A stretch of 64,000 nucleotides of DNA. It comes from Escherichia coli (lineage in GTDB: Bacteria > Pseudomonadota > Gammaproteobacteria > Enterobacterales > Enterobacteriaceae). This document shows positions 9,941 through 45,415 of this stretch, piece by piece (the first letter of the stretch is position 1; each line of letters starts with the position of its first letter). Position numbers and translations under genes: made by a program. The notes beneath the pieces were generated by a model, which saw only the letters and a program-made list of their open reading frames with translations, was not told the DNA's origin and did no database searches. The DNA lies in the NCBI RefSeq assembly GCF_041886205.1, contig NZ_CP169029.1. The stretch is one strand, 5' to 3'.

Positions 9941-9946
9941 GTGAAT

Positions 9947-10018: not shown

Positions 10019-10030
10019 GGATTCACAATA

Positions 10031-11662: not shown

Positions 11663-11881
11663 GAGTTCAGGTTCTCCTTATCGTTATATGTTCCTGAAGC
11701 AATTGAATGACCAAAGGACCGGAAACACGCTGACTGGCATCTTTACTGTGCCTTTTGACATTCGTTTTTCCGGCTAAGATTATTCCAGCCTGTTTCCAGT
11801 ATAAGTGTTTCATATTAATAAAGAGACAGGGCACTCATTGAGCGCCCTGTTTGTTGTAAGGAAAAGTGACAGATTTGTGAA

Positions 11882-15565
<3,684 letters not shown>

Positions 15566-15764
15566 ACTTGCTCCCGACACGCTCAACCCAGATTTAATAA
15601 AAATTCAACAAACCATACTGGCATAAACGCATCTGTGGTAAAAGCGACCACCACGCAACATGAGATTTGTTCAACATTAACTCATCGGATCAGTTCAGCA
15701 ACTATTGCATTAGCTAACAATAAAAATGAAAATGATTTCCACGATACAGAAAAAGGAGACTGTC

Positions 15765-16589
15765 ATGGTCGCACCCATTCCCGCGAAACGCGGCAGAAAA
15801 CCCGCCGTTGCCACCGCACCAGCGACTGGACAGGTTCAGTCTTTAACGCGTGGCCTGAAATTACTGGAGTGGATTGCCGAATCCAATGGCAGTGTGGCAC
15901 TCACGGAACTGGCGCAACAAGCCGGGTTACCCAATTCCACGACCCACCGCCTGCTAACCACGATGCAACAGCAGGGTTTCGTGCGTCAGGTTGGCGAACT
16001 GGGACACTGGGCAATCGGCGCACATGCCTTTATGGTCGGCAGCAGCTTTCTCCAGAGCCGTAATTTGTTAGCAATTGTTCACCCTATCCTGCGCAATTTA
16101 ATGGAAGAGTCTGGCGAAACGGTCAATATGGCGGTGCTTGATCAAAGCGATCACGAAGCGATTATTATCGACCAGGTACAGTGTACGCATCTGATGCGAA
16201 TGTCCGCGCCTATCGGCGGTAAATTGCCGATGCACGCTTCCGGTGCGGGTAAAGCCTTTTTAGCCCAACTGAGCGAAGAACAGGTGACGAAGCTGCTGCA
16301 CCGCAAAGGGTTACATGCCTATACCCACGCAACGCTGGTGTCTCCTGTGCATTTAAAAGAAGATCTCGCCCAAACGCGCAAACGGGGCTATTCATTTGAC
16401 GATGAGGAACATGCACTGGGGCTACGTTGCCTTGCAGCGTGTATTTTCGATGAGCACCGTGAACCGTTTGCCGCAATTTCTATTTCCGGACCGATTTCAC
16501 GTATTACCGATGACCGCGTGACCGAGTTTGGCGCGATGGTGATTAAAGCGGCGAAGGAAGTGACGCTGGCGTACGGTGGAATGCGCTGA
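15765..16589 (+). CDS. iclR: IclR transcriptional repressor of the glyoxylate shunt
   Basis: 274-aa product MVAPIPAKRGRKPAV..., ATG at 15765 with AAGGAG at 15753-15758. Confidence 0.95.
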   Translation: MVAPIPAKRGRKPAVATAPATGQVQSLTRGLKLLEWIAESNGSVALTELAQQAGLPNSTTHRLLTTMQQQGFVRQVGELGHWAIGAHAFMVGSSFLQSRNLLAIVHPILRNLMEESGETVNMAVLDQSDHEAIIIDQVQCTHLMRMSAPIGGKLPMHASGAGKAFLAQLSEEQVTKLLHRKGLHAYTHATLVSPVHLKEDLAQTRKRGYSFDDEEHALGLRCLAACIFDEHREPFAAISISGPISRITDDRVTEFGAMVIKAAKEVTLAYGGMR

Positions 16590-16905
16590 CTTTTTCTGGC
16601 GGGCAGAGGCAATATTCTGCCCATCATACCTGAGTGGCAATAGAATAAGGGTGTCTGTTAATCGCATTGACGCCAAAATAACTTAATGTCATACACTTCA
16701 CACACTTTTATTAACTCAGCATTATTTTTAAACATCAAACCACTTAATTATTAACAAAATCGCAAGATCTCATTCCACCGAAACTTTTACGGCTGCATTA
16801 TGAGATTGAGCGATTTATGATATTTCTTTAGTTGTAATCATATTAAATTTTTTCACTGTTCTGATAGTTAAAATTCAAGACATCAATAAATAATGAGATA
16901 TTTAA

Positions 16906-20797
<3,892 letters not shown>

Positions 20798-20825
20798 TTA
20801 GCGCCCTCATCAGGAGCAGAGAATT

Positions 20826-20959
20826 GCCGGATGCGGCGTAAACGCCTTATCCAGCCTACGTTCGGCAACGGTTGTAGGCATGATAAGACGCGCAAGCGTC
20901 GCATCAGGCATCGTGCACCGATTGCCGGATGCGGCGTAAATGCCTTATCCGGCCTACAG
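20826..20959. repeat. BIME/REP cluster in the aceA-aceK intergenic region
   Basis: Three REP units (20826-20860, 20872-20912, 20924-20959) in alternating orientation. Confidence 0.85.
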
Positions 20960-20979
20960 TCAGCAACGGTTGTTGTTGC

Positions 20980-22284
20980 TTAGAACTGCGATTCTTCGGT
21001 GGAGCCGGTCAGCGCTGTAACCGACGACGTGCCGCCCTGAATAATAGTCGTCACTTTATCGAAGTAACCTGTACCCACTTCCTGCTGGTGAGATACGAAG
21101 GTATAGCCATCTTTCGCGGCGGCAAATTCCGGCTGCTGCACTTTCTCAACGTAGTGCTTCATACCCTCGCCCTGGGCATAGGCGTTTGCCAGGTCAAACA
21201 TGTTGAACCACATGCTGTGGATACCTGCCAGGGTGATGAACTGGAACTTGTAACCCATATCCGACAGCTGCTGCTGGAAGCTGGCAATAGTTTTGTCGTC
21301 GAGGTTTTTCTGCCAGTTGAACGACGGTGAGCAGTTATAAGCCAGCAGTTTGCCCGGATATTTCGCGTGGATGGCTTGTGCAAAGCGACGCGCCAGTTCC
21401 AGATCCGGCGTGGAGGTTTCACACCATACCAGGTCAGCATATGGCGCATACGCCAGGCCACGGCTGATCGCTTGCTCAATGCCCGCATGAGTACGGAAGA
21501 AGCCTTCACTGGTACGTTCGCCGGTAATAAATTCGCTGTCATACGGGTCGCAATCGGAGGTGATCAGATCCGCCGCATCAGCATCGGTACGTGCAACCAG
21601 CAGGGTTGGAACGCCCGTCACGTCAGCTGCCAGACGCGCCGCGACCAGTTTCTGAATAGCTTCCTGAGTTGGCACCAAAACTTTGCCGCCCATGTGACCG
21701 CATTTCTTCACTGATGCCAGCTGATCTTCGAAGTGAACTGCCGCTGCACCGGCTTCAATCATCGCTTTCATCAGTTCAAAGGCATTCAGGACACCGCCAA
21801 AACCGGCTTCCGCATCGGCAACGATCGGCAGGAAGTAATCGACATAGCGCGGATCGCCCGGCTCAATGCCCGCGGACCATTGGATCTGATCCGCACGGCG
21901 GAAAGTATTGTTGATCCGCTCCACCACAGCTGGCACCGAGTTTGCCGGATAGAGCGACTGATCCGGATACATGCTGGCCGCCAGGTTAGCGTCCGCCGCT
22001 ACCTGCCATCCCGACAGATAGACTGCTTCAATACCCGCTTTCGCCTGTTGCAGCGCCTGACCGCCAGTCAGTGCACCGAGGCTGTTGATGTAGCCTTTTT
22101 TCGACTCGCCGTGCAGCAGACGCCACATTTTCGCCGCGCCCAGTTGCGCCAGGGTGCATTCAGGATTGACTGAACCGCGTAATTTCACCACATCTTCCGC
22201 GCTGTATGGGCGAGTAATGCCTTCCCAACGCGGTTGAGTCCACTCTTTCTGTAATTCTTCAATTTGTTGTGTACGGGTTTTCAT
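20980..22284 (-). CDS. aceA: Isocitrate lyase
   Basis: 434-aa product [27 protein letters not shown]..., ATG at 22282-22284. Confidence 0.97.
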
Positions 22285-22313
22285 GTGCAGATGCTCCATA
22301 GTTATGTGGTGGT

Positions 22314-23915
22314 TTACGCTAACAGGCGGTAGCCTGGCAGGGTCAGGAAATCTATTAACTCATCGGAAGTGGTGATCTGTTCCATCAAGCGTGCGGCATC
22401 GTCAAAACGCCCCTGGGAGAAACGTTCTTCGCCCAATTCGCTAGCAATGACTTTCATCTCTTCGTCCAGCATCTGGCGGAACAAGGCTTTGGTAACCGGT
22501 TTGCCATTGCTCAACGTTTTTTGATGATGGATCCACTGCCAGATTGAGGTACGGGAAATTTCAGCCGTCGCCGCATCTTCCATCAGGCCATAAATCGGCA
22601 CACAGCCGTTGCCGGATATCCATGCTTCGATGTACTGCACAGCCACGCGAATGTTGGCGCGCATACCTTCTTCGGTGCGTTCACCATCACAAGGTGCCAG
22701 CAGCTGATCGGCAGTAATCGGCGCGTCTTGTTCGCGCATCACTTCAAGCTGATTTTTACGGGAGCCGAGAATGTCGTTGAATACCGCCATTGCCGTGTCC
22801 GCAAGGCCTGGGTGAGCGATCCATGTGCCATCGTGACCGTTATTGGCTTCCAGCGATTTATCCGCTTTTACTTTGTTGAGCACCTGGTTATTGCGCTCTT
22901 CATCTTTGCTCGGAATAAATGCCGCCATGCCGCCCATCGCAAAAGCACCGCGTTTATGACACGTTTTGATTAACAGGCGTGAGTAAGCATTCAGGAAGGG
23001 TTTATCCATCGTCACTGCCTGTCTGTCTGGCAGGACGCGATCGGGATAGTTTTTCAACGTTTTGATATAACTGAAGATGTAATCCCAACGACCGCAGTTC
23101 AGACCAACAATATGGTCACGCAGCGCGTGAAGGATTTCATCCATCTGGAACACGGCGGGCAGCGTTTCAATCAGCAACGTCGCCTTGATGGTGCCGCGCG
23201 GCAGATTAAAGCGATCTTCTGCATAGCTGAAGACTTCGCTCCACCAGGCCGCTTCCTGCCAGGACTGGGTTTTCGGCAAATAGAAATAGGGACCGCTGCC
23301 CTTTGCCAACAGTGCCTGATAGTTGTGGAAGAAATAGAGCGCAAAATCAAACAGGCTACCGGGGATTGCCTCACCACGCCAGGTGACATGTTTTTCCGGC
23401 AAGTGCAGACCGCGTACCCGACAAATCAAAACCGCTGGATTGGGCTTGAGCTGATAAATTTTGCCTGCTTCATTGGTATAGCTGATGGTGCCGTTAACTG
23501 CATCACGCAGGTTAATTTGCCCGTCGATCACTTTGTTCCAGTCCGGGGCCAGTGAATCTTCGAAATCGGCCATAAAGACTTTCACATTGGCGTTGAGCGC
23601 GTTGATCACCATCTTGCGCTCTACCGGGCCAGTTATCTCTACTCGACGATCTTCTAAGTCCGCAGGAATCCCGCGAACTTTCCAGTTAGCATCACGAATG
23701 GAAGCTGTTTCCGAAATAAAATCAGGCAACGTTCCGTTATCAATATCTTGCTGCTGCTGAATGCGCGCTGCCAGAAGTTTATTGCGTTGTGGCGTAAAAT
23801 GCGTCACCAGCTCAGTCAGAAATTCTACCGCTTCGGCAGTAAGAATTTGCTTCTCCTGTTCGCCATACGGCCTTGTGAAAGCCAGTTCATCGGTTGTTGT
23901 TGCCTGTTCAGTCAT
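22314..23915 (-). CDS. aceB: Malate synthase A
   Basis: 533-aa product [23 protein letters not shown]..., ATG at 23913-23915 with GAGGAG Shine-Dalgarno. Confidence 0.97.
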
Positions 23916-24114
23916 CGTGCAGCTCCTCGTCATGGATCCGAAAACTTCCCCACTGTGAACGAAGGATCGTTGTGCGCTTTTCGTTCAGCACAACTAAGAC
24001 TACTCATTTAAAAATCAAAATCAAAAACAATTTCCATTTTAATTAAAAATACTTAATAACTTATTGATAACAATATGAATAAAATTTATTCACCTGATGA
24101 GGTGCATTTCGGAA

Positions 24115-24138
24115 ATAAAAAAGGCACCCGAAGGTGCC
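24115..24138 (-). terminator. Rho-independent terminator downstream of metA
   Basis: GGCACC-CGAA-GGTGCC hairpin (24123-24138) followed on the minus strand by a T-run (A-run 24113-24122 on plus strand). Confidence 0.7.
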
Positions 24139-24183
24139 TGAGGTAAGGTGCTGAATCGCTTAACGATCGACTATCACAGAAGA

Positions 24184-25113
24184 TTAATCCAGCGTTGGAT
24201 TCATGTGCCGTAGATCGTATGGCGTAATCTGGTAGACGTAATAGTTGAGCCAGTTGGTAAATAGCAAATTACCGTGACTACGCCAGCTCGCTCGCGGTGT
24301 ATTTTGCGGATCATTGTGCGGGAAATAGTTATACGGTACATCCGGGTCTAGTCCAGCTTCCAAATCGCGGAAAAATTCCTGCGCCAGCGTTTGCGCATCA
24401 TATTCGGGATGGCCCGTCACAAAGGCAATGCGCTTATCTTTGCTGGCAAACAGATATGCATCCCCTTCTTCCGTCTCTGCCAGAATTTCCAGATCGGTGT
24501 AATCACGAATCAACGATGCCGGAAAGTCAGCATAGCGCGAATGCGGTGCCAGGAATGAATCATCAAAGCCACGCGTCAGAAGCGCATGAGGATGGAGAAT
24601 ATGATGCTCGTAAACGCCAGAGAGTTTGTCGGTGCGGGTTTGCTTAGGAATGCCGTAGAGGATATTGAGCGCGGCCTGTACCGCCCAGCAGACAAACAGC
24701 GTCGAGGTGACGTGATCTTTCGACCACTCCAGCACCTGTTTGATCTGCGGCCAGTAAGCGACATCATTAAACTCCACCAGGCCCAGCGGCGCGCCGGTAA
24801 CTATCAGACCGTCAAAGTTTTGTTCCTGAATATCTTCAAAGTTACAGTAGAAGTTGTTCAGATGCTCTGCGGGCGTGTTGCGCGATTCACGGGAATCGAT
24901 GCGCAACAGCTGAATATCGACCTGTAAGGGCGAGTTTGAAAGCAGGCGCAGAAACTGATTTTCAGTTTCAATCTTCTTCGGCATCAGGTTAAGGATCAGA
25001 ACCTTAAGTGGACGAATTTCCTGACCAGACGCACGAGAAGTTGTCATCACAAAGACGTTTTCTTCACGCAAGAAATTGACGGCGGGTAGCTCGTCCGGCA
25101 CACGAATAGGCAT
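24184..25113 (-). CDS. metA: Homoserine O-succinyltransferase
   Basis: 309-aa [31 protein letters not shown]... Confidence 0.95.
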
Positions 25114-25269
25114 AACCTGATTACCTCACTACATACGCTTATACGTTTAGACATCCAGATAGCTGAAGATAACCAGAAAATTTGCCAATGTCGAGCCTGC
25201 ATGTTGAAGGTGAGAAAGTTTCAAGGAAAAGACTACGTTAGAATATAAGAATGACTAAAAGGAGAGAAA

Positions 25270-25713
25270 ATGGTTATTAGTATTCGCCGCTCACGGCATG
25301 AGGAAGGGGAGGAACTCGTTGCGATTTGGTGTCGATCTGTCGATGCCACTCACGATTTTTTATCAGCAGAGTATCGGGCCGAGCTGGAGGAGCTGGTTCG
25401 TTCCTTTCTGCCGGAAGCACCGTTGTGGGTCGCGGTTAATGAGCGGGAACAGCCGGTTGGGTTTATGTTGTTAAGTGGGCAGCATATGGATGCGCTATTT
25501 ATCGATCCTGAGGTGCGCGGCTGCGGCGTGGGTCGGATGCTGGTGGAGCATGCGCTCTCGATGGCACCGGAACTGACAACCAACGTTAATGAGCAAAATG
25601 AGCAGGCGGTTGGGTTCTATAAGAAGGTGGGTTTTAAGGTTACGGGACGCTCTGAGGTGGACGATTTGGGGAAACCGTATCCGTTGCTGAATCTGGCGTA
25701 TGTGGAGGAATAA
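25270..25713 (+). CDS. yjaB: GNAT-family N-acetyltransferase
   Basis: 147-aa ORF with acetyl-CoA binding motif (RGCGVGRMLVEHAL). Confidence 0.85.
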   Translation: MVISIRRSRHEEGEELVAIWCRSVDATHDFLSAEYRAELEELVRSFLPEAPLWVAVNEREQPVGFMLLSGQHMDALFIDPEVRGCGVGRMLVEHALSMAPELTTNVNEQNEQAVGFYKKVGFKVTGRSEVDDLGKPYPLLNLAYVEE

Positions 25714-25786
25714 GCTGCCCCTGCCGTGCCTGCCCAAGCTGGAGAAGACGCGCCAGCGTCGCACCCGGCATTTTTTTCACCAACGC

Positions 25787-25812
25787 AAAAAGGCCATCCG
25801 TCAGGATGGCCT
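25787..25812 (-). terminator. rrnE operon terminator
   Basis: AGGCCATCC-GTCA-GGATGGCCT hairpin immediately 3' of 5S rRNA, followed on the minus strand by TTTTT. Confidence 0.8.
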
Positions 25813-25825
25813 TCTGCTTAATTTG

Positions 25826-25945
25826 ATGCCTGGCAGTTCCCTACTCTCGCATGGGGAGACCCCACACTACCATCGGCGCTACGGCGTTTCACTTCTGAGT
25901 TCGGCATGGGGTCAGGTGGGACCACCGCGCTACGGCCGCCAGGCA
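25826..25945 (-). rRNA. rrfE: 5S ribosomal RNA
   Basis: 120-nt exact-looking match to E. coli 5S (reverse complement starts ATGCCTGGCAGTTCCCTACTCTCGCATGGGGAGACC...). Confidence 0.98.
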
Positions 25946-26037
25946 AATTCTTTTTTATCAGACCGCTTCTGCGTTCTGATTTAATCTGTATCAGGCTGAA
26001 AATCTTCTCTCATCCGCCAAAACACCTTCGGCGTTGT

Positions 26038-28941
<2,904 letters not shown>

Positions 28942-29134
28942 TCACAACCCGAAGATGTTTCTTACGATTCATCATCGTGTTGCGAAAATTTGAGAGACTC
29001 ACGAACAACTTTCGTTGTTCAGTGTTTCAATTTTCAGCTTGATCCAGATTTTTAAAGAGCAAATATCTCAAACATCACCCGAAGATGAGTTTTGAGATAT
29101 TAAGGCAGGTGACTTTCACTCACAAACCAGCAAG

Positions 29135-29210
29135 TGGCGTCCCCTAGGGGATTCGAACCCCTGTTACCGCCGTGAAAGGGCGGTGTCCTGGGCCTCTAGA
29201 CGAAGGGGAC
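29135..29210 (-). tRNA. gltV: tRNA-Glu (UUC) in the 16S-23S spacer
   Basis: 76-nt match to GTCCCCTTCGTCTAGAGGCCCAGGACACCGCCCTTTCACGGCGGTAACAGGGGTTCGAATCCCCTAGGGGACGCCA (reverse complement). Confidence 0.97.
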
Positions 29211-29295
29211 GTATCAGTCTGCTTCGCAAGACGCCTTGCTTTTCACTTTCTATCAGACAATCTGTGTGAGCACTGCAAAGAACGCTTCTTTAAGG

Positions 29296-30837
<1,542 letters not shown>

Positions 30838-31018
30838 AAAAGTTTGATGCTCAAAGAATTAAACTTCGTAATGAATTACGTGTTCACTCTTGAGACTTGG
30901 TATTCATTTTTCGTCTTGCGACGTTAAGAATCCGTATCTTCGAGTGCCCACACAGATTGTCTGATAAATTGTTAAAGAGCAGTTGCGACGCGCTTTAGCG
31001 CACTGTCGCGAGGTGGCG

Positions 31019-31047
31019 TATATTACGCTTTCCTCTTTCAGAGTCAA
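31019..31047 (-). promoter_or_regulatory. rrnE P2 promoter
   Basis: On the minus strand TTGACT - 16 bp - TAATAT followed by GC-rich discriminator (ACGCCACC), about 185 bp upstream of the mature 16S 5' end. Confidence 0.6.
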
Positions 31048-31129
31048 CCCTGAATTTCAGGATTTTTCTCTTCAACCGAACCGGCTGTTTGTGTGAAGTG
31101 ATTCACATCCGCCGTGTCGATGGAGGCGC

Positions 31130-31200
31130 ATTATAGGGAGTTCTCCGCAGGCCGCAATAGAAAAATTGCAGAAAAATGACTGACTGCTGCATTCCCCAGC
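31130..31200 (-). promoter_or_regulatory. rrnE P1 promoter with AT-rich UP-element region
   Basis: On the minus strand TTGCGG - 16 bp - TATAAT then GCGCCTCC discriminator; AT-rich tract (CATTTTTCTGCAATTTTTCTAT) immediately upstream. Confidence 0.6.
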
Positions 31201-31328
31201 AAAAGCCCGCTTTATACCTTTTTACGCACAGAGTTATCCACAATCATCAATGTAATTTCTGTATTTTGCCCACGGTAACCACAGTCAAAATTGTGATCAC
31301 CATTGAAAGAGAAAAATTCGCGAGCGTT

Positions 31329-31344
31329 GCGCAAACGTTTTCGT
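31329..31344. promoter_or_regulatory. PurR operator upstream of purHD
   Basis: GCGCAAACGTTTTCGT matches the PurR box consensus (ACGCAAACGTTTTCNT-like palindrome). Confidence 0.6.
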
Positions 31345-31451
31345 TACAATGCGGGCGAAAAATAAGGATGCCCCGTTAGGGGCGTTAGCTGAGTTTTTCG
31401 CGAAAAATTCAGCTAACGCTCTCTGTAATAGTCAAATCCAGGGGATTTACC

Positions 31452-33041
31452 ATGCAACAACGTCGTCCAGTCCGCCGCGCTCTGCTCAGTGTTTCTGACA
31501 AAGCCGGTATCGTCGAATTCGCCCAGGCACTTTCCGCACGCGGTGTGGAGCTGCTGTCTACAGGGGGCACTGCCCGTCTGTTAGCAGAAAAAGGTCTGCC
31601 GGTAACCGAAGTTTCCGATTACACCGGTTTCCCGGAGATGATGGATGGACGCGTGAAGACCCTGCATCCGAAAGTACATGGTGGCATTCTGGGCCGTCGC
31701 GGCCAGGACGATGCCATTATGGAAGAACATCAGATCCAGCCTATCGATATGGTGGTTGTTAACCTGTATCCGTTCGCCCAGACCGTGGCCCGTGAAGGTT
31801 GCTCGCTGGAAGATGCGGTTGAGAACATCGATATCGGCGGCCCAACGATGGTGCGCTCCGCCGCCAAGAACCATAAAGATGTCGCAATCGTGGTGAAGAG
31901 CAGCGACTATGACGCCATTATTAAAGAGATGGATGACAACGAAGGATCGCTGACGCTTGCAACCCGTTTCGACCTCGCCATCAAAGCCTTCGAACACACT
32001 GCCGCCTACGACAGCATGATTGCCAACTACTTCGGCAGCATGGTTCCGGCTTACCACGGTGAAAGCAAAGAAGCCGCCGGTCGCTTCCCACGCACGCTGA
32101 ACCTGAACTTCATTAAGAAGCTGGATATGCGTTACGGCGAGAACAGCCACCAGCAGGCTGCCTTCTATATAGAAGAGAATGTGAAAGAAGCCTCCGTTGC
32201 TACCGCAACCCAGGTTCAGGGTAAAGCCCTCTCTTATAACAACATCGCCGATACCGATGCGGCGCTGGAGTGCGTGAAAGAGTTCGCCGAGCCGGCATGT
32301 GTGATTGTGAAGCACGCCAACCCTTGCGGCGTGGCTATCGGCAATTCCATTCTTGATGCTTACGATCGCGCGTACAAAACCGACCCAACCTCCGCATTCG
32401 GCGGCATCATTGCCTTTAACCGCGAGCTGGATGCGGAAACCGCACAGGCCATCATTTCTCGTCAGTTTGTCGAAGTGATTATTGCGCCGTCCGCCAGCGA
32501 AGAAGCCCTGAAAATCACCGCCGCCAAACAGAACGTACGCGTTCTGACCTGCGGTCAGTGGGGCGAGCGTGTTCCGGGCCTCGATTTCAAACGCGTGAAC
32601 GGCGGTCTGCTGGTTCAGGATCGTGACCTGGGGATGGTCGGTGCGGAAGAACTGCGCGTGGTGACCAAACGTCAGCCGAGCGAACAGGAACTGCGTGATG
32701 CGCTGTTCTGCTGGAAGGTGGCGAAGTTTGTGAAATCCAACGCTATCGTCTATGCCAAAAACAATATGACTATCGGCATTGGCGCGGGCCAGATGAGCCG
32801 CGTGTACTCCGCAAAAATCGCCGGTATTAAAGCGGCCGATGAAGGCCTGGAAGTGAAAGGTTCCTCGATGGCTTCTGACGCGTTCTTCCCGTTCCGCGAC
32901 GGTATTGATGCCGCCGCCGCTGCGGGCGTGACCTGCGTAATCCAGCCTGGCGGTTCTATCCGTGATGACGAAGTGATTGCCGCCGCCGACGAGCACGGTA
33001 TTGCGATGCTCTTCACCGACATGCGCCACTTCCGCCATTAA
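31452..33041 (+). CDS. purH: Bifunctional AICAR transformylase / IMP cyclohydrolase
   Basis: 529-aa [30 protein letters not shown]... Confidence 0.97.
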
Positions 33042-33052
33042 TGGAGCAATAG

Positions 33053-34342
33053 ATGAAAGTATTAGTGATTGGTAACGGCGGGCGCGAGCACGCGCTGGCC
33101 TGGAAAGCGGCCCAGTCGCCGCTGGTTGAGACTGTTTTTGTTGCTCCGGGTAATGCAGGCACTGCACTGGAACCCGCGCTGCAAAACGTTGCTATTGGCG
33201 TGACCGATATCCCGGCGCTGTTGGATTTCGCACAAAACGAAAAGATTGATCTGACCATCGTCGGCCCGGAAGCGCCGCTGGTGAAAGGCGTGGTCGATAC
33301 CTTCCGCGCCGCCGGGCTGAAAATCTTCGGCCCAACCGCAGGTGCGGCCCAACTGGAAGGCTCAAAAGCGTTTACCAAAGATTTCCTGGCCCGCCATAAG
33401 ATCCCTACGGCGGAATACCAGAACTTCACCGAGGTAGAACCTGCGCTGGCGTATCTGCGTGAGAAAGGCGCGCCAATCGTCATTAAAGCGGACGGTCTGG
33501 CTGCCGGGAAAGGCGTTATCGTGGCGATGACGCTGGAAGAAGCGGAAGCGGCTGTTCACGATATGCTGGCGGGCAACGCTTTTGGCGACGCGGGTCATCG
33601 CATCGTTATCGAAGAGTTCCTCGATGGCGAAGAAGCGAGCTTTATCGTGATGGTGGACGGCGAGCATGTGCTGCCGATGGCTACCAGCCAGGATCACAAA
33701 CGCGTAGGCGATAAAGATACCGGACCAAACACCGGCGGGATGGGCGCTTACTCCCCCGCGCCGGTAGTAACCGATGACGTTCATCAGCGCACCATGGAAC
33801 GTATTATCTGGCCAACCGTGAAAGGCATGGCGGCGGAAGGCAACACCTACACCGGTTTTCTCTACGCGGGCCTGATGATCGACAAACAGGGCAATCCGAA
33901 GGTTATTGAATTTAACTGCCGCTTTGGCGATCCGGAAACCCAGCCGATTATGCTGCGCATGAAGTCCGATCTGGTTGAGCTCTGCCTGGCGGCCTGTGAA
34001 AGCAAACTGGACGAGAAAACGTCCGAGTGGGATGAACGCGCTTCTCTCGGCGTGGTGATGGCTGCGGGTGGATATCCGGGTGATTACCGCACCGGTGACG
34101 TGATCCACGGCCTGCCGCTGGAAGAAGTGGCAGGCGGCAAAGTGTTCCACGCGGGCACAAAACTGGCGGATGACGAGCAGGTAGTGACCAACGGCGGGCG
34201 CGTACTGTGCGTCACCGCGCTGGGTCATACCGTGGCAGAAGCGCAGAAACGCGCCTATGCCTTAATGACCGATATCCACTGGGACGACTGCTTCTGCCGG
34301 AAAGATATCGGCTGGCGCGCTATCGAACGCGAGCAGAACTAA
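33053..34342 (+). CDS. purD: Phosphoribosylamine-glycine ligase
   Basis: 429-aa ORF MKVLVIGNGGREHALAWKAAQSPLVETVFVAPGNAG... Confidence 0.97.
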   Translation: MKVLVIGNGGREHALAWKAAQSPLVETVFVAPGNAGTALEPALQNVAIGVTDIPALLDFAQNEKIDLTIVGPEAPLVKGVVDTFRAAGLKIFGPTAGAAQLEGSKAFTKDFLARHKIPTAEYQNFTEVEPALAYLREKGAPIVIKADGLAAGKGVIVAMTLEEAEAAVHDMLAGNAFGDAGHRIVIEEFLDGEEASFIVMVDGEHVLPMATSQDHKRVGDKDTGPNTGGMGAYSPAPVVTDDVHQRTMERIIWPTVKGMAAEGNTYTGFLYAGLMIDKQGNPKVIEFNCRFGDPETQPIMLRMKSDLVELCLAACESKLDEKTSEWDERASLGVVMAAGGYPGDYRTGDVIHGLPLEEVAGGKVFHAGTKLADDEQVVTNGGRVLCVTALGHTVAEAQKRAYALMTDIHWDDCFCRKDIGWRAIEREQN

Positions 34343-35664
34343 CGCGACAGTTTTGCCAATAGCGTTTTGCGCGTGATCCCTAACTGACGGGCGGCTTCGG
34401 TTTTGTTGCCGCCCGTTTTCTCCAGCGCCGCCAGAATCACCTCTTTTTCCACTTCCACCAACGGCTGAATATCCTGACTTTGTCCCAGCGGGATCGGCGT
34501 ACTGGCAATCGCCAGCGGCAGCTCGCGTTCGGAAATATATTCCCCGGTCAGCAGCACCACTGCCCGTTCCACCGCGTTTTCCAGCTCACGAATATTTCCC
34601 GGCCAGTCGTAATGAATCAACAGATCCATCGCCTGGGGCGTAAAACCTTTTACCGCCTTGCGATTACGCTCGGCAAAGCGCTGCAGAAAATGGCCAGCCA
34701 GCAGAGGGATATCTTCCCGCCGTTGCCGCAGCGATGGTACTTCAATCGCCACCACATTCAGGCGATAGTAGAGATCCTGGCGAAAACGCCCGGCATTCAC
34801 CTCTGCGGCAAGATCGCGATGGGTCGCCGCAATCAGCCGGACATCAACCGAGATAATCTGGTTGCTACCGACACGCTGAACTTCGCGCTCCTGAATCGCA
34901 CGCAGCAGACGCACCTGCATCATCGGCGAGATATCGCCAATTTCATCGAGAAACAGCGTGCCGCCGTCCGCCTCAACAAAGCGCCCTTCCCGGCGTTTAT
35001 CGGCTCCAGTAAACGCCCCTTTTTCGTGACCGAACAATTCAGATTCCAGCAAGGATTCGTTGAGTGCCGCACAGTTGAGCGTTACCAGCGGTTTTTCGCT
35101 ACGTGCGCTACTGGCGTGAATCGCCCTGGCGACCAGCTCTTTACCGGTGCCGGAATCGCCGTGGATCAGTACCGTGGCTTCCGATGGCGCGACGAGGGCG
35201 ATTTCACTGAGCAGGTGTTGCATCGCCGGGCTTTTACCGACCATACCGAACTGGCTGGCAGTCACCGCAGGTGTTTCAGCATCAATACTGTGCGTATGCG
35301 CGAGCGCTTTTTCCAGCGTCGCCTGTAGGTTATCGAAATCCAGCGGCTTGATGAGATAATCCAGCGCCCCAGTTTTCAGTGCCTCTACCGCCGTCTCGAC
35401 GCTGGAGTACGCAGTCATAATCAGCACCGGAATTGCCGGGTTTAACGCTTTGATCTCTTTCAGCGTGGCGATGCCGTCCATCTCCGCCATTCGCACATCG
35501 CAAAGCACAAGATCAAAAACCTGTTCCCGCACCTGCTCCAACGCCTGTCGCCCGCTGTTCGCCAGCGCGACGTTATAGCCCCAGCCGCGCAGTAAAGCCT
35601 GCAAAATAGTGCAGTGGCTAATGTCATCATCCACCACCAGAATATCGATATTATCGTGCGTCAT
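34339..35664 (-). CDS. zraR: Sigma-54-dependent response regulator ZraR
   Basis: 441-aa ORF with receiver domain, AAA+ sigma-54 activator core (GESGTGKE, GAFTGA) and C-terminal HTH. Confidence 0.93.
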
Positions 35665-37058
35665 CCTTGTGGGTCCTTACGCGTAATATTGACCGGAAGC
35701 CAGAGGGTGAACGTTGAGCCTTTTCCCTCCTGGCTTGCGACCTGAATTGTACCACCGTGTTGTTCAACAATATTATGCACGACCGCCAGCCCCAATCCGG
35801 TGCCTTCGGCTTTAGTGGTGAAGTACGGAGTGAAGATGGCATCAAGCTGATCTGCCGCAATTCCCTTACCGCTGTCGGTAACGCTGATTTTCACGCCCGC
35901 GCCGCTTTCGCTGGCCGTCACGCTAATCACGCCATGCTGACCAATCGCCTGAATAGCATTGAGATAGAGATTCAACAGGACCTGAGTCAGCCTGTCCGGG
36001 TCGGCCTGAATTTCCGGTAATGTGTCGTTGGCGGTAAAGCGTAACTGGATCTCCCGGCTGTTTGCATCCTGACTTACCAGCTGTAATGAGTGGTTAATCA
36101 GCGTGTTGAGATCCACCGCCTGCAAAGCCAGATGCGTTGGCTTAACCAGTTCCAGCAACTCGCTTACCACGCGGTTTAAACGGTCGACCTCTTTCGCCAT
36201 CACCTGCGCCAGTTGATGCGCTTCTCCCCCTGCAGGCGCGCGCTCGGCAAAGTATTTCGCCAGTCCTTTAATCGAGGAAAGTGGGTTACGGATTTCGTGG
36301 GCAACGCCTGCCGCAAGATGCCCCAGCGCCACCAGCTTCTCTTTGCGCTTCATTTCATCTTGTAGAAGCTGGCGCGAGCGCAGATAGCGGCGATACCAGA
36401 AGAATGACAATACGCTTGCCAGCAAGACCGTCGCCAGGGCGAAGAGGATAATCAGGGTATTGCGCTTTTCCCCACTCTGGGTTGCAACCAGATCACTGGC
36501 ATCAACGGCGATAAAAATAGCCTGTTGTGCATCTACTTGTGGCACAGCTTTGCCGTTACAGCGCGGCATATTGTGCATTCCATGCCGCCAGGGCGCTGAC
36601 ATTGGCTGGAACAAACGATAGACCTCAAGTGCAGGCGTAGTTTCCGTTTTCCCAAGCAGCCGCCAGCGGGAGTTTTCCTCTGGCTTTAATTTCTGCATTT
36701 CATCCGGCGAATAGAGCGCACGCCCGACCTTATCGGGGTCGCTATGAAGAATAATGATGCCCTGCGCATCGGTGACTGCGAACCACAACACTCCCGGCTG
36801 TCCCGCCATCTCTTCCAGAAGCGCCTGTTGCTGTACATGGTGCATTCGCATCCCCATCCCTACGCGGCTTCCCGACTCCAGAGCGCGGATAAGCACATTA
36901 CCTTTTTCCAGTAATGCCTGGCGGTCTGCCTCGCTTGCCCGCCCATAATCACGAATCACAGTTACCGCAAACAATCCCACCAGCCCAACAATGACCACGG
37001 GGAGGATCGCGCTTAACCATTTAGCTAAGGAGTCTTTAGAACGTTGCATAAAATGCAT
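35661..37058 (-). CDS. zraS: Sensor histidine kinase ZraS
   Basis: 465-aa ORF with two TM segments, HAMP-like region and HisKA/HATPase domains (HEIRNPL...GTGLGL); stop overlaps zraR start by 4 nt. Confidence 0.93.
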   Translation of the reverse strand: MHFMQRSKDSLAKWLSAILPVVIVGLVGLFAVTVIRDYGRASEADRQALLEKGNVLIRALESGSRVGMGMRMHHVQQQALLEEMAGQPGVLWFAVTDAQGIIILHSDPDKVGRALYSPDEMQKLKPEENSRWRLLGKTETTPALEVYRLFQPMSAPWRHGMHNMPRCNGKAVPQVDAQQAIFIAVDASDLVATQSGEKRNTLIILFALATVLLASVLSFFWYRRYLRSRQLLQDEMKRKEKLVALGHLAAGVAHEIRNPLSSIKGLAKYFAERAPAGGEAHQLAQVMAKEVDRLNRVVSELLELVKPTHLALQAVDLNTLINHSLQLVSQDANSREIQLRFTANDTLPEIQADPDRLTQVLLNLYLNAIQAIGQHGVISVTASESGAGVKISVTDSGKGIAADQLDAIFTPYFTTKAEGTGLGLAVVHNIVEQHGGTIQVASQEGKGSTFTLWLPVNITRKDPQG

Positions 37059-37089
37059 CTTCTTCTTTGCCTGCTCATCCCTTTCTGAC

Positions 37090-37105
37090 AGCAGAAATCA
37101 TGCCA
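37090..37105 (-). promoter_or_regulatory. Sigma-54 promoter of zraSR
   Basis: Minus-strand TGGCATGATTTCTGCT (GG and GC spaced for -24/-12). Confidence 0.6.
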
Positions 37106-37155
37106 TCTTTTATCAGCGCTTACCCTGCGCTGTAACACAAAGGCTTAAGTTTCAA

Positions 37156-37203
37156 CGAGTAAAAATGACTCGCTACCCGCAGCAGGCGAGTCATTTTTAC
37201 TCG
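37156..37203. promoter_or_regulatory. Paired ZraR enhancer binding sites
   Basis: CGAGTAAAAATGACTCG (37156-37172) and its reverse complement CGAGTCATTTTTACTCG (37187-37203) between the divergent sigma-54 promoters. Confidence 0.65.
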
Positions 37204-37244
37204 TTTATCATGCCAGATTACCCGTCATATCAGCGTTTTATCGT

Positions 37245-37260
37245 TGGCACGGAAGATGCA
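37245..37260 (+). promoter_or_regulatory. Sigma-54 promoter of zraP
   Basis: TGGCACGGAAGATGCA with GG at 37246-37247 and GC at 37258-37259. Confidence 0.65.
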
Positions 37261-37295
37261 ATACCCGAAGTAAGACAACCACTGGAGGATTAACC

Positions 37296-37721
37296 ATGAA
37301 ACGGAACACGAAAATTGCCCTGGTAATGATGGCGCTTTCAGCAATGGCGATGGGATCGACATCTGCATTTGCTCACGGCGGACATGGTATGTGGCAGCAA
37401 AATATAGCGCCCTTGACCAGCGAACAACAAACTACGTGGCAAAAAATCCATAATGACTTTTACGCTCAAAGCAGCGCGCTGCAACAACAGCTAATGGCTA
37501 AGCGTTATGAATACAATGCCCTGTTAGCCGCGAACCCACCGGATAGCAGCAAAATTAACGCGGTCGCCAAAGAGATGGAGAATTTGCGTCAGTCGTTAGA
37601 TGAGTTACGGGTGAAACGGGATATTGCGATGGCTGAAGCGGGTATTCCGCGCGGAGCCGGAATGGGCATGGGCTACGGCGGCTGCGGTGGTGGCGGTCAT
37701 ATGGGTATGGGCCACTGGTAA
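37296..37721 (+). CDS. zraP: Periplasmic zinc-binding chaperone ZraP
   Basis: 141-aa ORF with signal peptide and Gly/Met/His-rich C-terminus (GMGMGYGGCGGGGHMGMGHW). Confidence 0.9.
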   Translation: MKRNTKIALVMMALSAMAMGSTSAFAHGGHGMWQQNIAPLTSEQQTTWQKIHNDFYAQSSALQQQLMAKRYEYNALLAANPPDSSKINAVAKEMENLRQSLDELRVKRDIAMAEAGIPRGAGMGMGYGGCGGGGHMGMGHW

Positions 37722-37722
37722 A

Positions 37723-38424
37723 TCAGAACGTTTTCTCGTTGGGTTGCCAGCGACAGAAATCAGAGTTTGCCACTAACAGTAATTGCGAACCTTCGGGCGC
37801 TTCCAGCCATGCCACGCTGACATCAACAGAAGAGCGGCTCTGGCGGCGCTCGATATGCGCTATCGCCTGCGAATCTAAATCAGGTTTAATGGTTTGCCCT
37901 TCGCAGGTGGTCACGGTCTGTTCCATCGCATGCCAGCGCCCCTGGCGCAGCACGACTCTCCCCTGACGTAAGGCATCGCTAATCTGGCGGATCTGATCAG
38001 CACGATAACGGTATAAATCGATTTGGTCGTTAGAAAGCTGCTGCTTTTCCCCATCGGATTCACGTTGCATAAAGCTCAGATCGCCGCGATCGTCAAAACG
38101 CGCGCGAATATTCACCGGCGGTTTGCTGTAAACATTGATGTTGATGAGCGTAAGGTTATCACCCTGCCAGCGATACTCTCGCGTCGTGGTATCGCCACTG
38201 CGCCACGGGCTAAACACGGCAAGCAGATGCACATTATCGCCGCTGTCTTTTCGCCAGATGCGTACCGCGCCCTGGTCTTCAGCAAATCCACTGGCGGTAA
38301 AGGGAGGAAGTGAAGAGTTGTGGCTACAGGCAGTGAGAAACAGCGCACCTGCCAGCATCAATGATCGACGCCAGAAAGACAAAAGGGGTGAAACCACCCC
38401 TTCGTTAAAACTGTTCACTGCCAC
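37723..38424 (-). CDS. yjaH: Predicted lipoprotein YjaH (DUF1481)
   Basis: ORF with lipobox-like LAGALFLTAC; true start codon uncertain (the ORF track starts at a GTG). Confidence 0.7.
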   Translation of the reverse strand: MAVNSFNEGVVSPLLSFWRRSLMLAGALFLTACSHNSSLPPFTASGFAEDQGAVRIWRKDSGDNVHLLAVFSPWRSGDTTTREYRWQGDNLTLININVYSKPPVNIRARFDDRGDLSFMQRESDGEKQQLSNDQIDLYRYRADQIRQISDALRQGRVVLRQGRWHAMEQTVTTCEGQTIKPDLDSQAIAHIERRQSRSSVDVSVAWLEAPEGSQLLLVANSDFCRWQPNEKTF

Positions 38425-38430
38425 GCAATC

Positions 38431-38703
38431 TTACTTAACTGCGTCTTTCAGTGCCTTGCCAGAAACAAATGCCGGTACGTTAGCTGCGGCAATTTTGATT
38501 TCTTTACCGGTCTGCGGGTTGCGGCCAGTACGCTCAGCGCGGTGGTTCACTTTGAAGGTACCGAAACCAACCAGTTGTACAGCATCGCCTTCTTTCAGAG
38601 ACTCAGTAATTGCAGCCAGAGTGGACTCCAGAGCAGCTTTAGCCTGGGTTTTGGACAGTTCTGCTTTCTCTGCAATTACATCAATCAGTTGAGTCTTGTT
38701 CAT
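38431..38703 (-). CDS. hupA: DNA-binding protein HU-alpha
   Basis: 90-aa [55 protein letters not shown]... Confidence 0.97.
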
Positions 38704-38889
38704 AAGTTATCCTTACAATGTGTTTATCGCTTGCTAAGCATCGAGTGCGACGGAAATGCCAGAATAGCACTCTCCTGCATACACGCACCGATAGCCACTT
38801 TTTTTCGCCCCCCAAATGTAGACCAGACGGGGGGCGAAAGGGAAGACTCCAGGTACGACAAATCAGGCGTTAAATCACGTTTTCTGGTC

Positions 38890-39480
38890 TTATTGCTGAA
38901 AAATTATACCAATATTGCTCTCACCCGCCTCACGCAGGTCTGCCCTAAGGCCTTTTATCAGCTCGATATCGCGTTCTTCGCACTCAGCTAAAAGTCGGAA
39001 TATTTCCCACTGAATGTCCCATTCTTGCTCTACAGCTGGGTTTTCTTTAAGCTCTTCATCGCTCATTTCGCGACCAGCCTGAGTCATTTCCAGCATCGCA
39101 ACGGTCGTGATGGAGGTCTTACTCACTTCCACCGCGTGTTCGAGCGTTTCACCACTCAAACGCGAATGGACCAGTTCACTTAACGCCACGCATGCATCGA
39201 TTGCCGGATAAACGCCGTACAGATCGAAATCGTCGGCTGAAGGAATCGCTTCTTCAAATTTCTCCAGTTGGCTGTCGAAATTTACTTTTGCGTCTTTAAC
39301 GGTCAGCGTTTCCCAGATGAGATCGAGAATGCGACGGTAAATTTGCCCATCACCAAAACCGGTTTGCTGGCAGAACATGGCGTAATTGGGGTACATGCGT
39401 TCGCATAAGCAAGCCATGAAAGTGACATGCTGCCAGCTTTCCAGGCGCTCCAGACGCAGATGAATTGGGTTTTGTAACAT
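38890..39480 (-). CDS. yjaG: YjaG (DUF416 family protein)
   Basis: 196-aa ORF at the conserved position between hupA and nfi. Confidence 0.85.
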   Translation of the reverse strand: MLQNPIHLRLERLESWQHVTFMACLCERMYPNYAMFCQQTGFGDGQIYRRILDLIWETLTVKDAKVNFDSQLEKFEEAIPSADDFDLYGVYPAIDACVALSELVHSRLSGETLEHAVEVSKTSITTVAMLEMTQAGREMSDEELKENPAVEQEWDIQWEIFRLLAECEERDIELIKGLRADLREAGESNIGIIFQQ

Positions 39481-39522
39481 GTTGAGTTCTCAAATACGGA
39501 AATTATCCGCAGTTTACCTGAA

Positions 39523-40194
39523 TTAGGGCTGATTTGCTGTATAGCGCACGAACGCCGGACGTTCCGAGGCCACCGCGTCCGCCCAGCGCGTTGGCTCCGG
39601 CAGACGATAGCCTTTCATGCAGCGTTGTACCCACGCCAGCGCGCTGTCCACGCTGACCCGATGGCCGGTAGCGATAAACAACGGGTTACAGCGCGCTTTG
39701 CTGCGCCAGACCCAGGCCAGCTGCTCGCCTTTATCCATCAGTGGGGCCAGCGCGCCCGGTTCGCTGGAGAGCGGTTCGAATTTACCGCAGAGCCGTTTTT
39801 TCGCCACGCCAATGGTCGGCACATCCACCAATAAGCCAAAATGGCTGGCGACGCCAAGACGGCGAGGATGCGAGATCCCATGACCATCGACAAACACTAA
39901 ATCCGGCTTTTGCGACAGCATCTCCCACGCTGCCAGCAGCGCAGGATATTCGCGGAAGGAAAGAAAACCTGGAATGTAAGGCATGGTGGTGGCGATGCGG
40001 GCAACTTTATACTCCACCAGCTCAAGCGAGGGATATTTCAGCAGCACCATCGCCGCTCGCGTCACTTCTCCGCCCTGCTCAAACCCGACATCGGCTCCGG
40101 CGATCAGATCCGGTGGATCTTTATCGAGTCGATCCTCGCGGATCACAGAAGAAGCCAGTTCGATTTGTTGAGCGCGTAATGACGCGAGATCCAT
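39523..40194 (-). CDS. nfi: Endonuclease V
   Basis: 223-aa product [21 protein letters not shown]..., ATG at 40192-40194, 3 nt after the hemE stop. Confidence 0.93.
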
Positions 40195-40203
40195 AATCAC
40201 TCC

Positions 40204-41268
40204 TTAGCGGTGATATTGTTCAGACAGTCGATGCACTGCCTCCACGAACACGCCAGCATGTTCTGGCGGCACATCCTGATGAATGCCGTGACCAAGGTTA
40301 AAGACATGACCTTCGCCGTGACCGAAACCTGCAAGTATAGTCGCTACTTCTTCTTCAATGCGGGCAGGCGGCGCGTACAGCATCGACGGATCCATATTAC
40401 CCTGCAACGCGACTTTATTGCCCACACGGCGGCGCGCATCGGCGATATCCGTTGTCCAGTCGAGGCCCAACGCATCGCAACCGGTTTCTGCCATCGCTTC
40501 CAGCCACTGTCCGCCGCCTTTGGTAAACAGCGTGACCGGTACGCGGCGACCGTCGTTTTCACGCAGTAAACCATCAACAATTTTATGCATGTAATAGAGC
40601 GAGAACTGTTGATAATCGCGCCCGGTAAGCACACCGCCCCAGGTGTCGAAAATCATCACTGCCTGAGCACCGGCTTTAATCTGCGCATTCAGATACAAAG
40701 TGACGCTTTTCGCCAGTTTATCGAGTAGAGCGTGCAGCGCCTGCGGATCGGCATACATCATTTTTTTGATCACGGTGAACGCTTTGCTGCTGCCGCCTTC
40801 CACCATGTAGGTCGCCAGCGTCCACGGGCTGCCGGAAAAACCAATCAGCGGCACTTCGCCTTTCAGTTCGCGACGAATGGTACGCACCGCGTTCATCACG
40901 TAACCCAGCTCATCTTCCGGGTCCGGAATTGGCAGTTTATCGACGTCGGCTTTGCAGGTGACTGGCGAGGTAAAACGCGGACCTTCTCCGGCTTCAAAAT
41001 AGAGCCCTAACCCCATCGCGTCCGGCACGGTGAGGATATCGGAAAAGAGGATCGCCGCATCCAGCGGGTAGCGACGCAGCGGTTGCAAAGTCACTTCGCA
41101 CGCCAGCTCGGCGTTTTTGCACAGCGACATAAAATCGCCCGCCTGGGCGCGCGTGGCTTTATATTCCGGTAGATAGCGACCCGCCTGGCGCATCATCCAT
41201 ACTGGAGTGACATCAACGGGCTGGCGCAGCAGCGCCCGCAGATAACGATCGTTTTTAAGTTCGGTCAT
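40204..41268 (-). CDS. hemE: Uroporphyrinogen decarboxylase
   Basis: 354-aa [39 protein letters not shown]... Confidence 0.95.
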
Positions 41269-41307
41269 TTTGGCTGTTCCTTAGTGCGTCAGGCGGTCAG
41301 TGTATCA

Positions 41308-42081: not shown

Positions 42082-42175
42082 AGCTCTTGCACTACCTTTG
42101 CATCACTGGCATGTTTAACATGGTTTTTACATTTCTCACTGAGCAGTTTTTGAATACAAACTTGCGGAGTCAATC

Positions 42176-45407: not shown

Positions 45408-45415
<8 letters not shown>

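What the first reader, a model, noticed from the sequence alone, without database searches (positions are those of the whole stretch)
25714..25825. yjaA is absent: only 112 bp separate yjaB from the 5S rRNA gene
In K-12 the small gene yjaA lies between rrfE and yjaB, and its presence or absence is one of the Clermont phylotyping markers. Here the interval contains only the rrnE terminator hairpin. Together with the presence of arpA this points to a non-K-12, non-B2 background (B1-like or another yjaA-negative lineage), consistent with the strain carrying extra cargo at lysC-yjbD.
Basis: partly seen in the sequence, partly recalled or inferred. Interest (0 to 1): 0.4.

Follow-up and report, generated by a model that had tools for sequence, protein, structure and literature searches.

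The report
Common yjaA-less rrnE–yjaB junction

Summary
yjaB ends at 25713 and the 120-nt 5S rRNA gene (rrfE, minus strand) starts at 25826, leaving 112 bp. No yjaA gene, remnant or Clermont yjaA primer site exists anywhere in the window. K-12 does carry yjaA (b4011) at this spot.

This is not a simple deletion. 110 bp here (25709–25818) replace 518 unrelated bp in K-12. The 110 bp hold a rrnB/rrnA T2-type terminator hairpin and a decayed REP element that folds as a likely yjaB terminator.

The allele is ordinary. 2,808 of 5,426 complete E. coli genomes carry it and 2,594 carry yjaA. Escherichia cryptic-clade genomes, Klebsiella, Citrobacter and most Salmonella also have yjaB next to the 5S gene. 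Pectobacterium, Kosakonia, Phytobacter, Superficieibacter and Salmonella salamae keep yjaA at the same site, so the polymorphism is old.

The phylogroup reading is only partly right. arpA+ and yjaA− exclude B2, F and C. But everything right of the junction (38 kb) is 99.72% identical to K-12, while the left flank is only 98.3%. The junction is therefore a haplotype boundary in an apparently phylogroup-A-like genome, not evidence for B1. Interest is low.

The parts
25270..25713 (+). yjaB (GNAT peptidyl-lysine acetyltransferase), convergent with rrnE. The last codon and the stop codon (GAA TAA) belong to the allele-specific segment.
   Evidence: ORF. NCBIfam PRK10514 at 275 bits and Pfam GNAT domains. 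96.8% identical to K-12 yjaB. The allele-specific ends GAATAA versus GCGTAG are shown.
25709..25818 (.). Allele-specific segment of the yjaA-less haplotype: 110 bp, 59% GC. It replaces 518 unrelated bp (45.8% GC) in K-12, which hold the rrnE terminator, yjaA and a spacer.
   Evidence: blastn homology to K-12 stops at 25705 and resumes at 25819.
25729..25777 (-). Decayed REP (Z2-like) element. On the + strand it folds into a hairpin (25738-25769) followed by T7 (25771-25777), which is a likely intrinsic terminator for yjaB.
   Evidence: The REP core consensus matches 25742-25765 (-) with 2 mismatches; 0 matches are expected by chance, and the only other copy in the window lies inside the Rfam naRNA4/REP hit at 20882-20905. 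A better-preserved REP sits at the same place in Escherichia sp. E1V33 and at K-12 rrnA-mobB.
25784..25819 (-). rrn T2-type intrinsic terminator of rrnE. Stems are 25792-25799 and 25804-25811, the loop is 25800-25803, and a U-run follows on the transcribed strand. The T1 terminator is missing.
   Evidence: The RNA fold of the minus strand shows the hairpin. The sequence is identical to the K-12 rrnA distal T2 region. The long allele (strain 503025) carries T1 plus T2, with 168 extra bp between 18-bp direct repeats.
25826..25945 (-). rrfE, the 5S rRNA and last gene of the rrnE operon.
   Evidence: Rfam RF00001 at 92.8 bits, 25828-25943. The 120-nt comparison with K-12 rrfE shows 1 mismatch.
16906..19092 (+). 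arpA (annotated espL4 by PGAP), the second Clermont marker in the window. The aceK-arpA amplicon is 19072-19471.
   Evidence: 728-aa ORF. Annotation of the identical region in wlxctx60. Perfect primer matches giving 400 bp.
1..25705 (.). Divergent haplotype block to the left of the junction: about 98.3% identical to K-12 and to B1 genomes. It is shared at 100.0% only with strains wlxctx60 and 6EVA.
   Evidence: In wlxctx60 the block extends at least 50 kb.
25819..64000 (.). K-12-like block to the right of the junction: 99.72% identical to MG1655.
   Evidence: At least 99% identity to 1,769 genomes.

Best explanation
The 112-bp interval is the widespread yjaA-less haplotype of the junction between the distal end of rrnE and the convergent gene yjaB.

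It holds two back-to-back terminator-like elements. One is a T2-type rrn hairpin with a U-run that ends rrnE transcription. The other is a decayed REP element whose hairpin plus T7, read on the other strand, probably ends yjaB transcription.

It is an old allele, not a recent deletion in this strain. It shares no sequence with the K-12 allele between the last codon of yjaB and 7 nt beyond the 5S gene. It segregates at about 50% in E. coli and also occurs in other Escherichia species.

yjaA occupies the same site in distant Enterobacterales. The yjaA-less state is therefore most likely an ancient loss allele that has since been passed around by homologous recombination.

In this strain the junction coincides with a sharp change in ancestry. 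Sequence is K-12-like from rrnE onward and belongs to a rare divergent haplotype from yjaB leftward for at least 50 kb. The yjaA status was therefore probably set by a recombination tract that ended in or at the highly conserved rRNA operon.

Shown: the anatomy, the allele frequencies, the synteny in other genera and the divergence switch. Inferred: terminator function, the direction of the ancient change (loss), and recombination as the cause of the switch.
For: Anatomy.

Replacement rather than deletion: 110 bp versus 518 bp with no homology.

Frequency in 5,426 complete E. coli genomes:
- yjaA is present in 2,594.
- The window-type spacer is present in 2,808.
- 832 of those carry the long T1+T2 form.

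Same architecture elsewhere: Escherichia sp. E1V33 and MOD1-EC7003, Klebsiella, Citrobacter koseri, Pseudocitrobacter, and Salmonella arizonae and diarizonae.

yjaA at the same site in other genera:
- Kosakonia: 65% amino-acid identity, NCBIfam YjaA at 157 bits against a cut-off of 125.
- Phytobacter diazotrophicus.
- S. enterica salamae and Superficieibacter.
- Pectobacterium versatile, with the order 23S-5S-hairpin-yjaA-metA.
- Citrobacter youngae.

Divergence switch:
- Left flank 98.26% and right flank 99.72% to K-12, with 0 mismatches across 28679-36186 but 14 in yjaB.
- USML2 is 99.99% identical to K-12 on both sides and carries yjaA.
- The left block extends at least 50 kb in wlxctx60.
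- An unlinked region of wlxctx60 is 99.3-99.4% identical to K-12.
Against: - The direction of change is not settled. The yjaB-REP-T2-5S layout is shared by several genera and is paralogous to the K-12 rrnA-mobB distal region. That pattern would also fit an ancestral yjaA-less state with later gain or transfer of yjaA.
- The simple terminator scan called neither hairpin, and no transcript data were available.
- The genome-wide background was judged from one proxy genome and three regions only.
- The divergent left block could be the native background and the K-12-like right block the import.
Confidence: 0.75

Rival explanations
1. The yjaA-less layout is ancestral, and yjaA with its own terminator was inserted or swapped in later in K-12, B2 and related lineages. 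On this reading the window simply never had yjaA.
For: - yjaB lies directly next to a T2-type hairpin and the 5S gene in Klebsiella, Citrobacter, Pseudocitrobacter, Salmonella arizonae and diarizonae, and cryptic Escherichia.
- The long yjaA-less allele is paralogous to the K-12 rrnA-mobB distal region, with T1, T2 and REP.
- The yjaA segment has lower GC: 45% against 50-54% for its neighbours.
- The YjaA family is small and patchy.
Against: - yjaA occupies exactly this site next to the 5S gene and metA in Pectobacterium, Kosakonia, Phytobacter, Superficieibacter, Salmonella salamae and Citrobacter youngae.
- Its identity levels (47-69%) are in line with those of YjaB (about 77-80%). That is hard to obtain by independent insertions.
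Confidence: 0.2
2. yjaA was deleted recently in this strain or its clone, starting from a K-12-like allele.
For: The right flank is almost identical to K-12, so a K-12-like ancestor is conceivable.
Against: - The interval carries 110 bp (REP plus T2 hairpin) that are absent from the K-12 allele, and it keeps no K-12 allele remnant.
- The identical layout is found in 2,808 genomes.
- yjaB and everything to its left are 2-3% diverged from K-12.
Confidence: 0.03
3. The strain belongs to phylogroup B1, or another non-A lineage. On this reading the K-12-like right flank is the imported part.
For: - arpA+ with yjaA- fits B1.
- The left flank, at least 50 kb long, is as far from K-12 (98.3-98.7%) as from B1 (98.4%).
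Against: - The right flank is 99.7% identical to K-12, against about 98.9% to the B1 strain B7A.
- An unlinked 45-kb region of the proxy genome is 99.3-99.4% identical to K-12.
- The left flank is no closer to B1 than to A.
- TspE4.C2 could not be tested.
Confidence: 0.2
4. The short interval is an assembly artefact, a collapse next to the repeated rRNA operon.
For: The only differences from the otherwise identical genomes wlxctx60 and 6EVA are 6 nt in the terminator hairpin. That could reflect mis-polishing with reads from another rrn operon.
Against: The same 112-114-bp layout is present in thousands of independent complete genomes and in other species.
Confidence: 0.02

Closest known systems
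yjaA presence/absence marker of the Clermont triplex and quadruplex E. coli phylotyping PCR
   Same: It is the same locus and the same negative state. There are no yjaA primer sites, and arpA is positive with the expected 400-bp product. The genotype logic follows ClermonTyping, PMC6113867.
   Different: Nothing differs in kind. The added detail is that the negative allele is a replacement haplotype (REP plus T2 terminator) rather than an empty site. In this strain it also lies on a haplotype boundary, so it reports local ancestry rather than genome-wide ancestry.
Distal terminator region of E. coli rrn operons (rrnB T1-T2; K-12 rrnA-mobB interval)
   Same: The hairpin and its flanks are identical to the K-12 rrnA T2 region. 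A REP follows it, as at rrnA-mobB, and the downstream gene is convergent in both cases.
   Different: T1 and the 168-bp T1-T2 spacer are missing. They are present in 832 other yjaA-less genomes. K-12 rrnE itself uses an unrelated terminator followed by yjaA.
REP (repetitive extragenic palindromic) elements, Z2-like type
   Same: The position is extragenic between convergent genes. The central 24 nt match the consensus with 2 mismatches. Orthologous positions in other strains carry a canonical REP.
   Different: The outer arms are degenerate (GCCGGGT... and ...CTCCAGCTTGG), so it is a decayed single copy rather than a BIME cluster.

Membership tests
Clermont yjaA-negative genotype | No product with primers yjaA.1b/yjaA.2b (211 bp in positive strains) | tested here: met
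   The window has no primer site with up to 4 mismatches. The same primers give 211 bp on K-12. The primer sequences were recalled from memory and validated by that K-12 result.
Clermont yjaA-negative genotype | No YjaA coding sequence at the rrfE-yjaB site or elsewhere | tested here: met
   tblastn best E-value 0.63 across the 64-kb window. yjaB and the 5S gene are adjacent. The rest of the genome was not available.
E. coli phylogroup B1 (quadruplex + - - +) | arpA positive (400-bp aceK-arpA product) | tested here: met
   Perfect primer matches at 19072-19471.
E. coli phylogroup B1 (quadruplex + - - +) | chuA negative | tested here: inconclusive
   chuA lies outside the window. The proxy genome wlxctx60 (100.0% identical over window 1-25000) has a 13.6-kb K-12-type acid fitness island with no chu genes (PMC9144400).
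E. coli phylogroup B1 (quadruplex + - - +) | TspE4.C2 positive | not testable with these tools
   The fragment lies outside the window, and no reference sequence for it was at hand.
E. coli phylogroup B1 (quadruplex + - - +) | Closest genome-wide relatives are B1 strains | tested here: not met
   The right flank is 99.7% identical to K-12 (A) against about 98.9% to B7A (B1). The left flank is equidistant, 98.3% versus 98.4%. This rests on regional data only.
E. coli phylogroup A (quadruplex + - - - or + - + -) | arpA+, chuA-, TspE4.C2-, and close relatedness to group A reference strains | tested here: inconclusive
   arpA+. chuA- by proxy. TspE4.C2 untested. Identity to K-12 is 99.72% over 38 kb and 99.3-99.4% over an unlinked 45 kb of the proxy genome, but the left block is only 98.3-98.7%.
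Phylogroup E (arpA group-E allele) | Perfect match to the allele-specific primers ArpAgpE.f and ArpAgpE.r (301 bp) | tested here: not met
   Each primer has one mismatch, and for ArpAgpE.r it is the 3'-terminal base (17291-17591). Identity to O157:H7 is 97.8%.
rrn T2-type intrinsic terminator | GC-rich hairpin plus U-run just 3' of the 5S gene on the transcribed strand, with sequence matching rrnA/rrnB T2 | tested here: met
   Fold. Identical to K-12 rrnA T2. The simple consensus scan missed it, and termination activity cannot be tested here.
REP element | Roughly 35-bp imperfect palindrome matching the REP consensus, in an extragenic position | tested here: inconclusive
   The core matches with 2 of 24 mismatches and 0 matches expected by chance. 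The palindrome folds. The outer arms are degenerate compared with orthologous copies.

The most novel reading that the evidence does not exclude
The rrnE-distal site holds a very long-lived presence/absence polymorphism of yjaA. It recurs within several genera: Escherichia, Salmonella, Phytobacter and Citrobacter. It is shuffled between lineages by recombination tracts anchored in the ultra-conserved rRNA operon. On this reading a classic phylotyping marker sits on a recombination boundary and can be uncoupled from genome ancestry, as it appears to be in this strain.
Probability: 0.3. Interest if true: 0.35.

Novelty: already known. Interest (0 to 1): 0.15.

Why it matters
Practically, it matters little. 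yjaA absence is a routine typing result shared by about half of sequenced E. coli.

The useful lessons are cautionary:
- A single marker next to an rRNA operon reports only local ancestry. Here it lies exactly on a switch between a K-12-like block and a rare divergent block.
- "Absent" is in fact an alternative haplotype with its own terminators, not an empty site.
- yjaA's position beside the rrnE-equivalent operon is conserved as far out as Pectobacterium. That makes repeated loss and exchange at this site a small but clean example of a trans-lineage gene-content polymorphism.

Tried and rejected
- A literature search for the closest strains (wlxctx60, 6EVA) returned only irrelevant papers. 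A search for yjaA together with yjaB found nothing on the origin of the polymorphism.
- The consensus terminator scan did not call either hairpin. I rely on the folds and on identity to known rrn T2 sequence instead.
- I considered the 99% identity between E. whittamii and K-12 across yjaA as evidence for recent interspecies transfer. I dropped it because yjaB is equally conserved across Escherichia, so the comparison is not informative.
- I looked for a yjaA remnant or a relocated copy in the window and found none.
- I tested whether Pseudomonas YjaA homologues also lie next to rRNA. They do not; they sit in a TauE-lgt-thyA / TANGO2-ptsP context. Two other look-ups found no record.
- Most fetched loci were not exported to the scripting machine. 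Several comparisons therefore had to be done with the alignment tool or after re-fetching.

Full report
**Observation**

The window is an E. coli chromosome segment running pgi-lysC ... metH-iclR-arpA-aceKAB-metA-yjaB, then rrnE on the minus strand, then purHD ... thiC-H, rpoCB and tufB.
- yjaB is 25270-25713 (+).
- Rfam places the 5S rRNA at 25828-25943 (-).
- The 120-nt mature 5S as annotated in K-12 is 25826-25945, with one difference from K-12 rrfE.

K-12 MG1655 has yjaA (b4011) between rrfE and yjaB, and its interval is 520 bp. The window has no yjaA:
- tblastn with YjaA gives only noise (best E-value 0.63).
- blastn with the K-12 interval finds no remnant.
- The Clermont yjaA primers have no site with up to 4 mismatches. 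On K-12 they give the expected 211 bp.

**What the interval is**

Homology to K-12 stops one base into the last sense codon of yjaB and resumes 7 nt before the 5S 3' end. Window 25709-25818 (110 bp, 59% GC) stands in place of 518 unrelated bp in K-12 (45.8% GC). This is an alternative haplotype, not a deletion scar.

It contains two elements.
- *A rrn T2-type terminator.* The stems are 25792-25799 and 25804-25811, and a U-run follows on the rrnE strand. It is identical to the T2 region downstream of K-12 rrnA.
- *A decayed REP element.* Its core is 25742-25765 (-), with 2 mismatches to the Z2-type consensus and none expected by chance. On the yjaB strand it folds into a hairpin followed by T7, a plausible yjaB terminator.

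A longer version of the same allele (282 bp, for example strain 503025) also carries T1 and the T1-T2 spacer. The short form equals the long form minus 168 bp that lie between two 18-bp direct repeats, ATTTGATGCCTGGCAGTT. The long form is paralogous to the whole K-12 rrnA-mobB interval.

**How common the allele is**

Among 5,426 complete E. coli genomes:
- 2,594 carry yjaA.
- 2,808 carry the window-type yjaB-REP junction.
- 832 of those have the long T1+T2 form.

The two alleles are roughly complementary and close to 50:50 in this (biased) collection. The feature is ordinary.

**Depth of the polymorphism**

A scan of species-representative genomes with YjaB shows the yjaA-less layout, with yjaB followed by a REP-like sequence, a T2-type hairpin and the 5S gene, in:
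- Escherichia sp. E1V33 and MOD1-EC7003
- Klebsiella
- Citrobacter koseri
- Pseudocitrobacter
- Salmonella arizonae and diarizonae
- Phytobacter massiliensis

.

yjaA lies at the very same site in:
- E. whittamii
- Kosakonia sp. S29, at 65% amino-acid identity and passing the NCBIfam YjaA cut-off
- Phytobacter diazotrophicus
- Salmonella enterica subsp. salamae and Superficieibacter electus

In Pectobacterium versatile the order is 23S-5S-hairpin-yjaA-metA-aceBA, with no yjaB. Citrobacter youngae also has yjaA directly upstream of metA.

This synteny beyond the Enterobacteriaceae makes it more likely that yjaA is an old resident lost repeatedly than that it was inserted independently. I hold that at about 0.6-0.7, because the yjaA-less layout is itself widely shared. 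Pseudomonas homologues lie elsewhere in the genome. YjaA has no Pfam domain.

**Strain background**

The first 25 kb of the window are 100.0% identical to two complete genomes: wlxctx60 (bear, Japan) and 6EVA (human, Singapore). Strain C9 follows at 98.7%, and all other genomes are at about 97-98.4%.

Against K-12 there is a sharp switch exactly at the junction.
- 8158-25705 is 98.26% identical, with 306 mismatches. yjaB is 96.8% and metA 97.9%.
- 25819-64000 is 99.72% identical, with no difference at all across 28679-36186.

Further comparisons:
- Strain USML2 is 99.99% identical to K-12 on both sides and carries yjaA.
- In wlxctx60 the divergent state continues for at least 50 kb to the left.
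- An unlinked 45-kb region of wlxctx60 is 99.3-99.4% identical to K-12.
- On the right flank the B1 strain B7A is about 98.9% identical and O157:H7 is 98.1%.
- On the left flank A, B1 and E strains are 98.3%, 98.4% and 97.8% identical.

The simplest reading is a phylogroup-A-like genome in which a large divergent tract ends in or at rrnE and carries the yjaA-less allele with it. The ClermonTyping paper explicitly warns that horizontal transfer covering a marker changes the typing result (PMC6113867).

**Typing**

- arpA is positive, with a 400-bp product at 19072-19471.
- The group-E arpA primers each have one mismatch, and one of these is at the 3' terminal base.
- By proxy chuA is negative. 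wlxctx60 has the short acid fitness island without chu genes. The chu genes lie inside that island in chuA+ strains (PMC9144400).
- The profile is + - - ?, meaning A or B1.
- "Non-K-12, B1-like" is not supported.

**Small details**

The window differs from wlxctx60 and 6EVA in this region only by a flipped hairpin loop (GTCA versus TGAC) and an adjacent CT/TC swap, 6 nt within 16 bp. The window's version equals the K-12 rrnA T2 sequence. This could be a gene-conversion patch from another rrn operon or a polishing artefact. Both loop orientations occur among other E. coli alleles.

**Verdict**

The feature is a known and very common typing polymorphism. The phylogroup inference is only partly right. 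Interest is low.

Noticed in passing
window 25705/25819 boundary; blocks 1-25705 and 25819-64000: Identity to K-12 jumps from 98.26% on the left to 99.72% on the right, exactly at the yjaB/rrnE junction. There are zero differences across 28679-36186. In the near-identical genome wlxctx60 the divergent block runs at least 50 kb further left.
   Followed up: yes
window 25800-25815: The terminator hairpin loop is flipped (GTCA versus TGAC) and the adjacent CT/TC is swapped relative to the otherwise identical genomes wlxctx60 and 6EVA. The window's version equals K-12 rrnA T2. This is either gene conversion between rrn terminators or a polishing artefact.
   Followed up: partly
window ~4335-7763 (between lysC and yjbD): About 3.4 kb absent from K-12 carries three genes annotated in wlxctx60: a zeta-toxin family protein (4473-5405 +), a nucleotidyltransferase-domain protein (5441-6241 -) and a slipin family protein (6238-7365 -).
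   Followed up: no
window 27207-27219 and 28390-28402 (23S rRNA): There are two tight clusters of differences from K-12 rrlE in an otherwise identical 23S gene. This is typical of heterogeneity and gene conversion between rrn operons.
   Followed up: no
window 37054-38350 (yjaH-zraP-start of zraS): A 1.3-kb patch with about 35 differences from K-12 sits inside the otherwise K-12-identical right flank. It looks like a small separate recombination patch.
   Followed up: no
window 17291-17591 (arpA): The group-E-specific arpA primers match with one mismatch each, including the 3'-terminal base of ArpAgpE.r. The arpA allele is therefore close to, but not the same as, the E-type target.
   Followed up: partly
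L055 2753-3372 (Pectobacterium versatile CP063380.2); L058 (Citrobacter youngae): yjaA lies directly between the 5S gene of an rRNA operon and metA, with no yjaB. The rrn-yjaA-metA-aceBA synteny is therefore older than the Enterobacteriaceae, and yjaB itself is variably present.
   Followed up: partly
L059 4001-4366, L060 4001-4423 (Pseudomonas-type contigs): Distant YjaA homologues (38-41% identity) sit in a conserved TauE-lgt-thyA / TANGO2-ptsP-NUDIX neighbourhood, not next to rRNA. The family is broader than its name suggests, and it has no Pfam model.
   Followed up: no
yjaB is equally conserved, so this was not interpreted further.
   Followed up: partly
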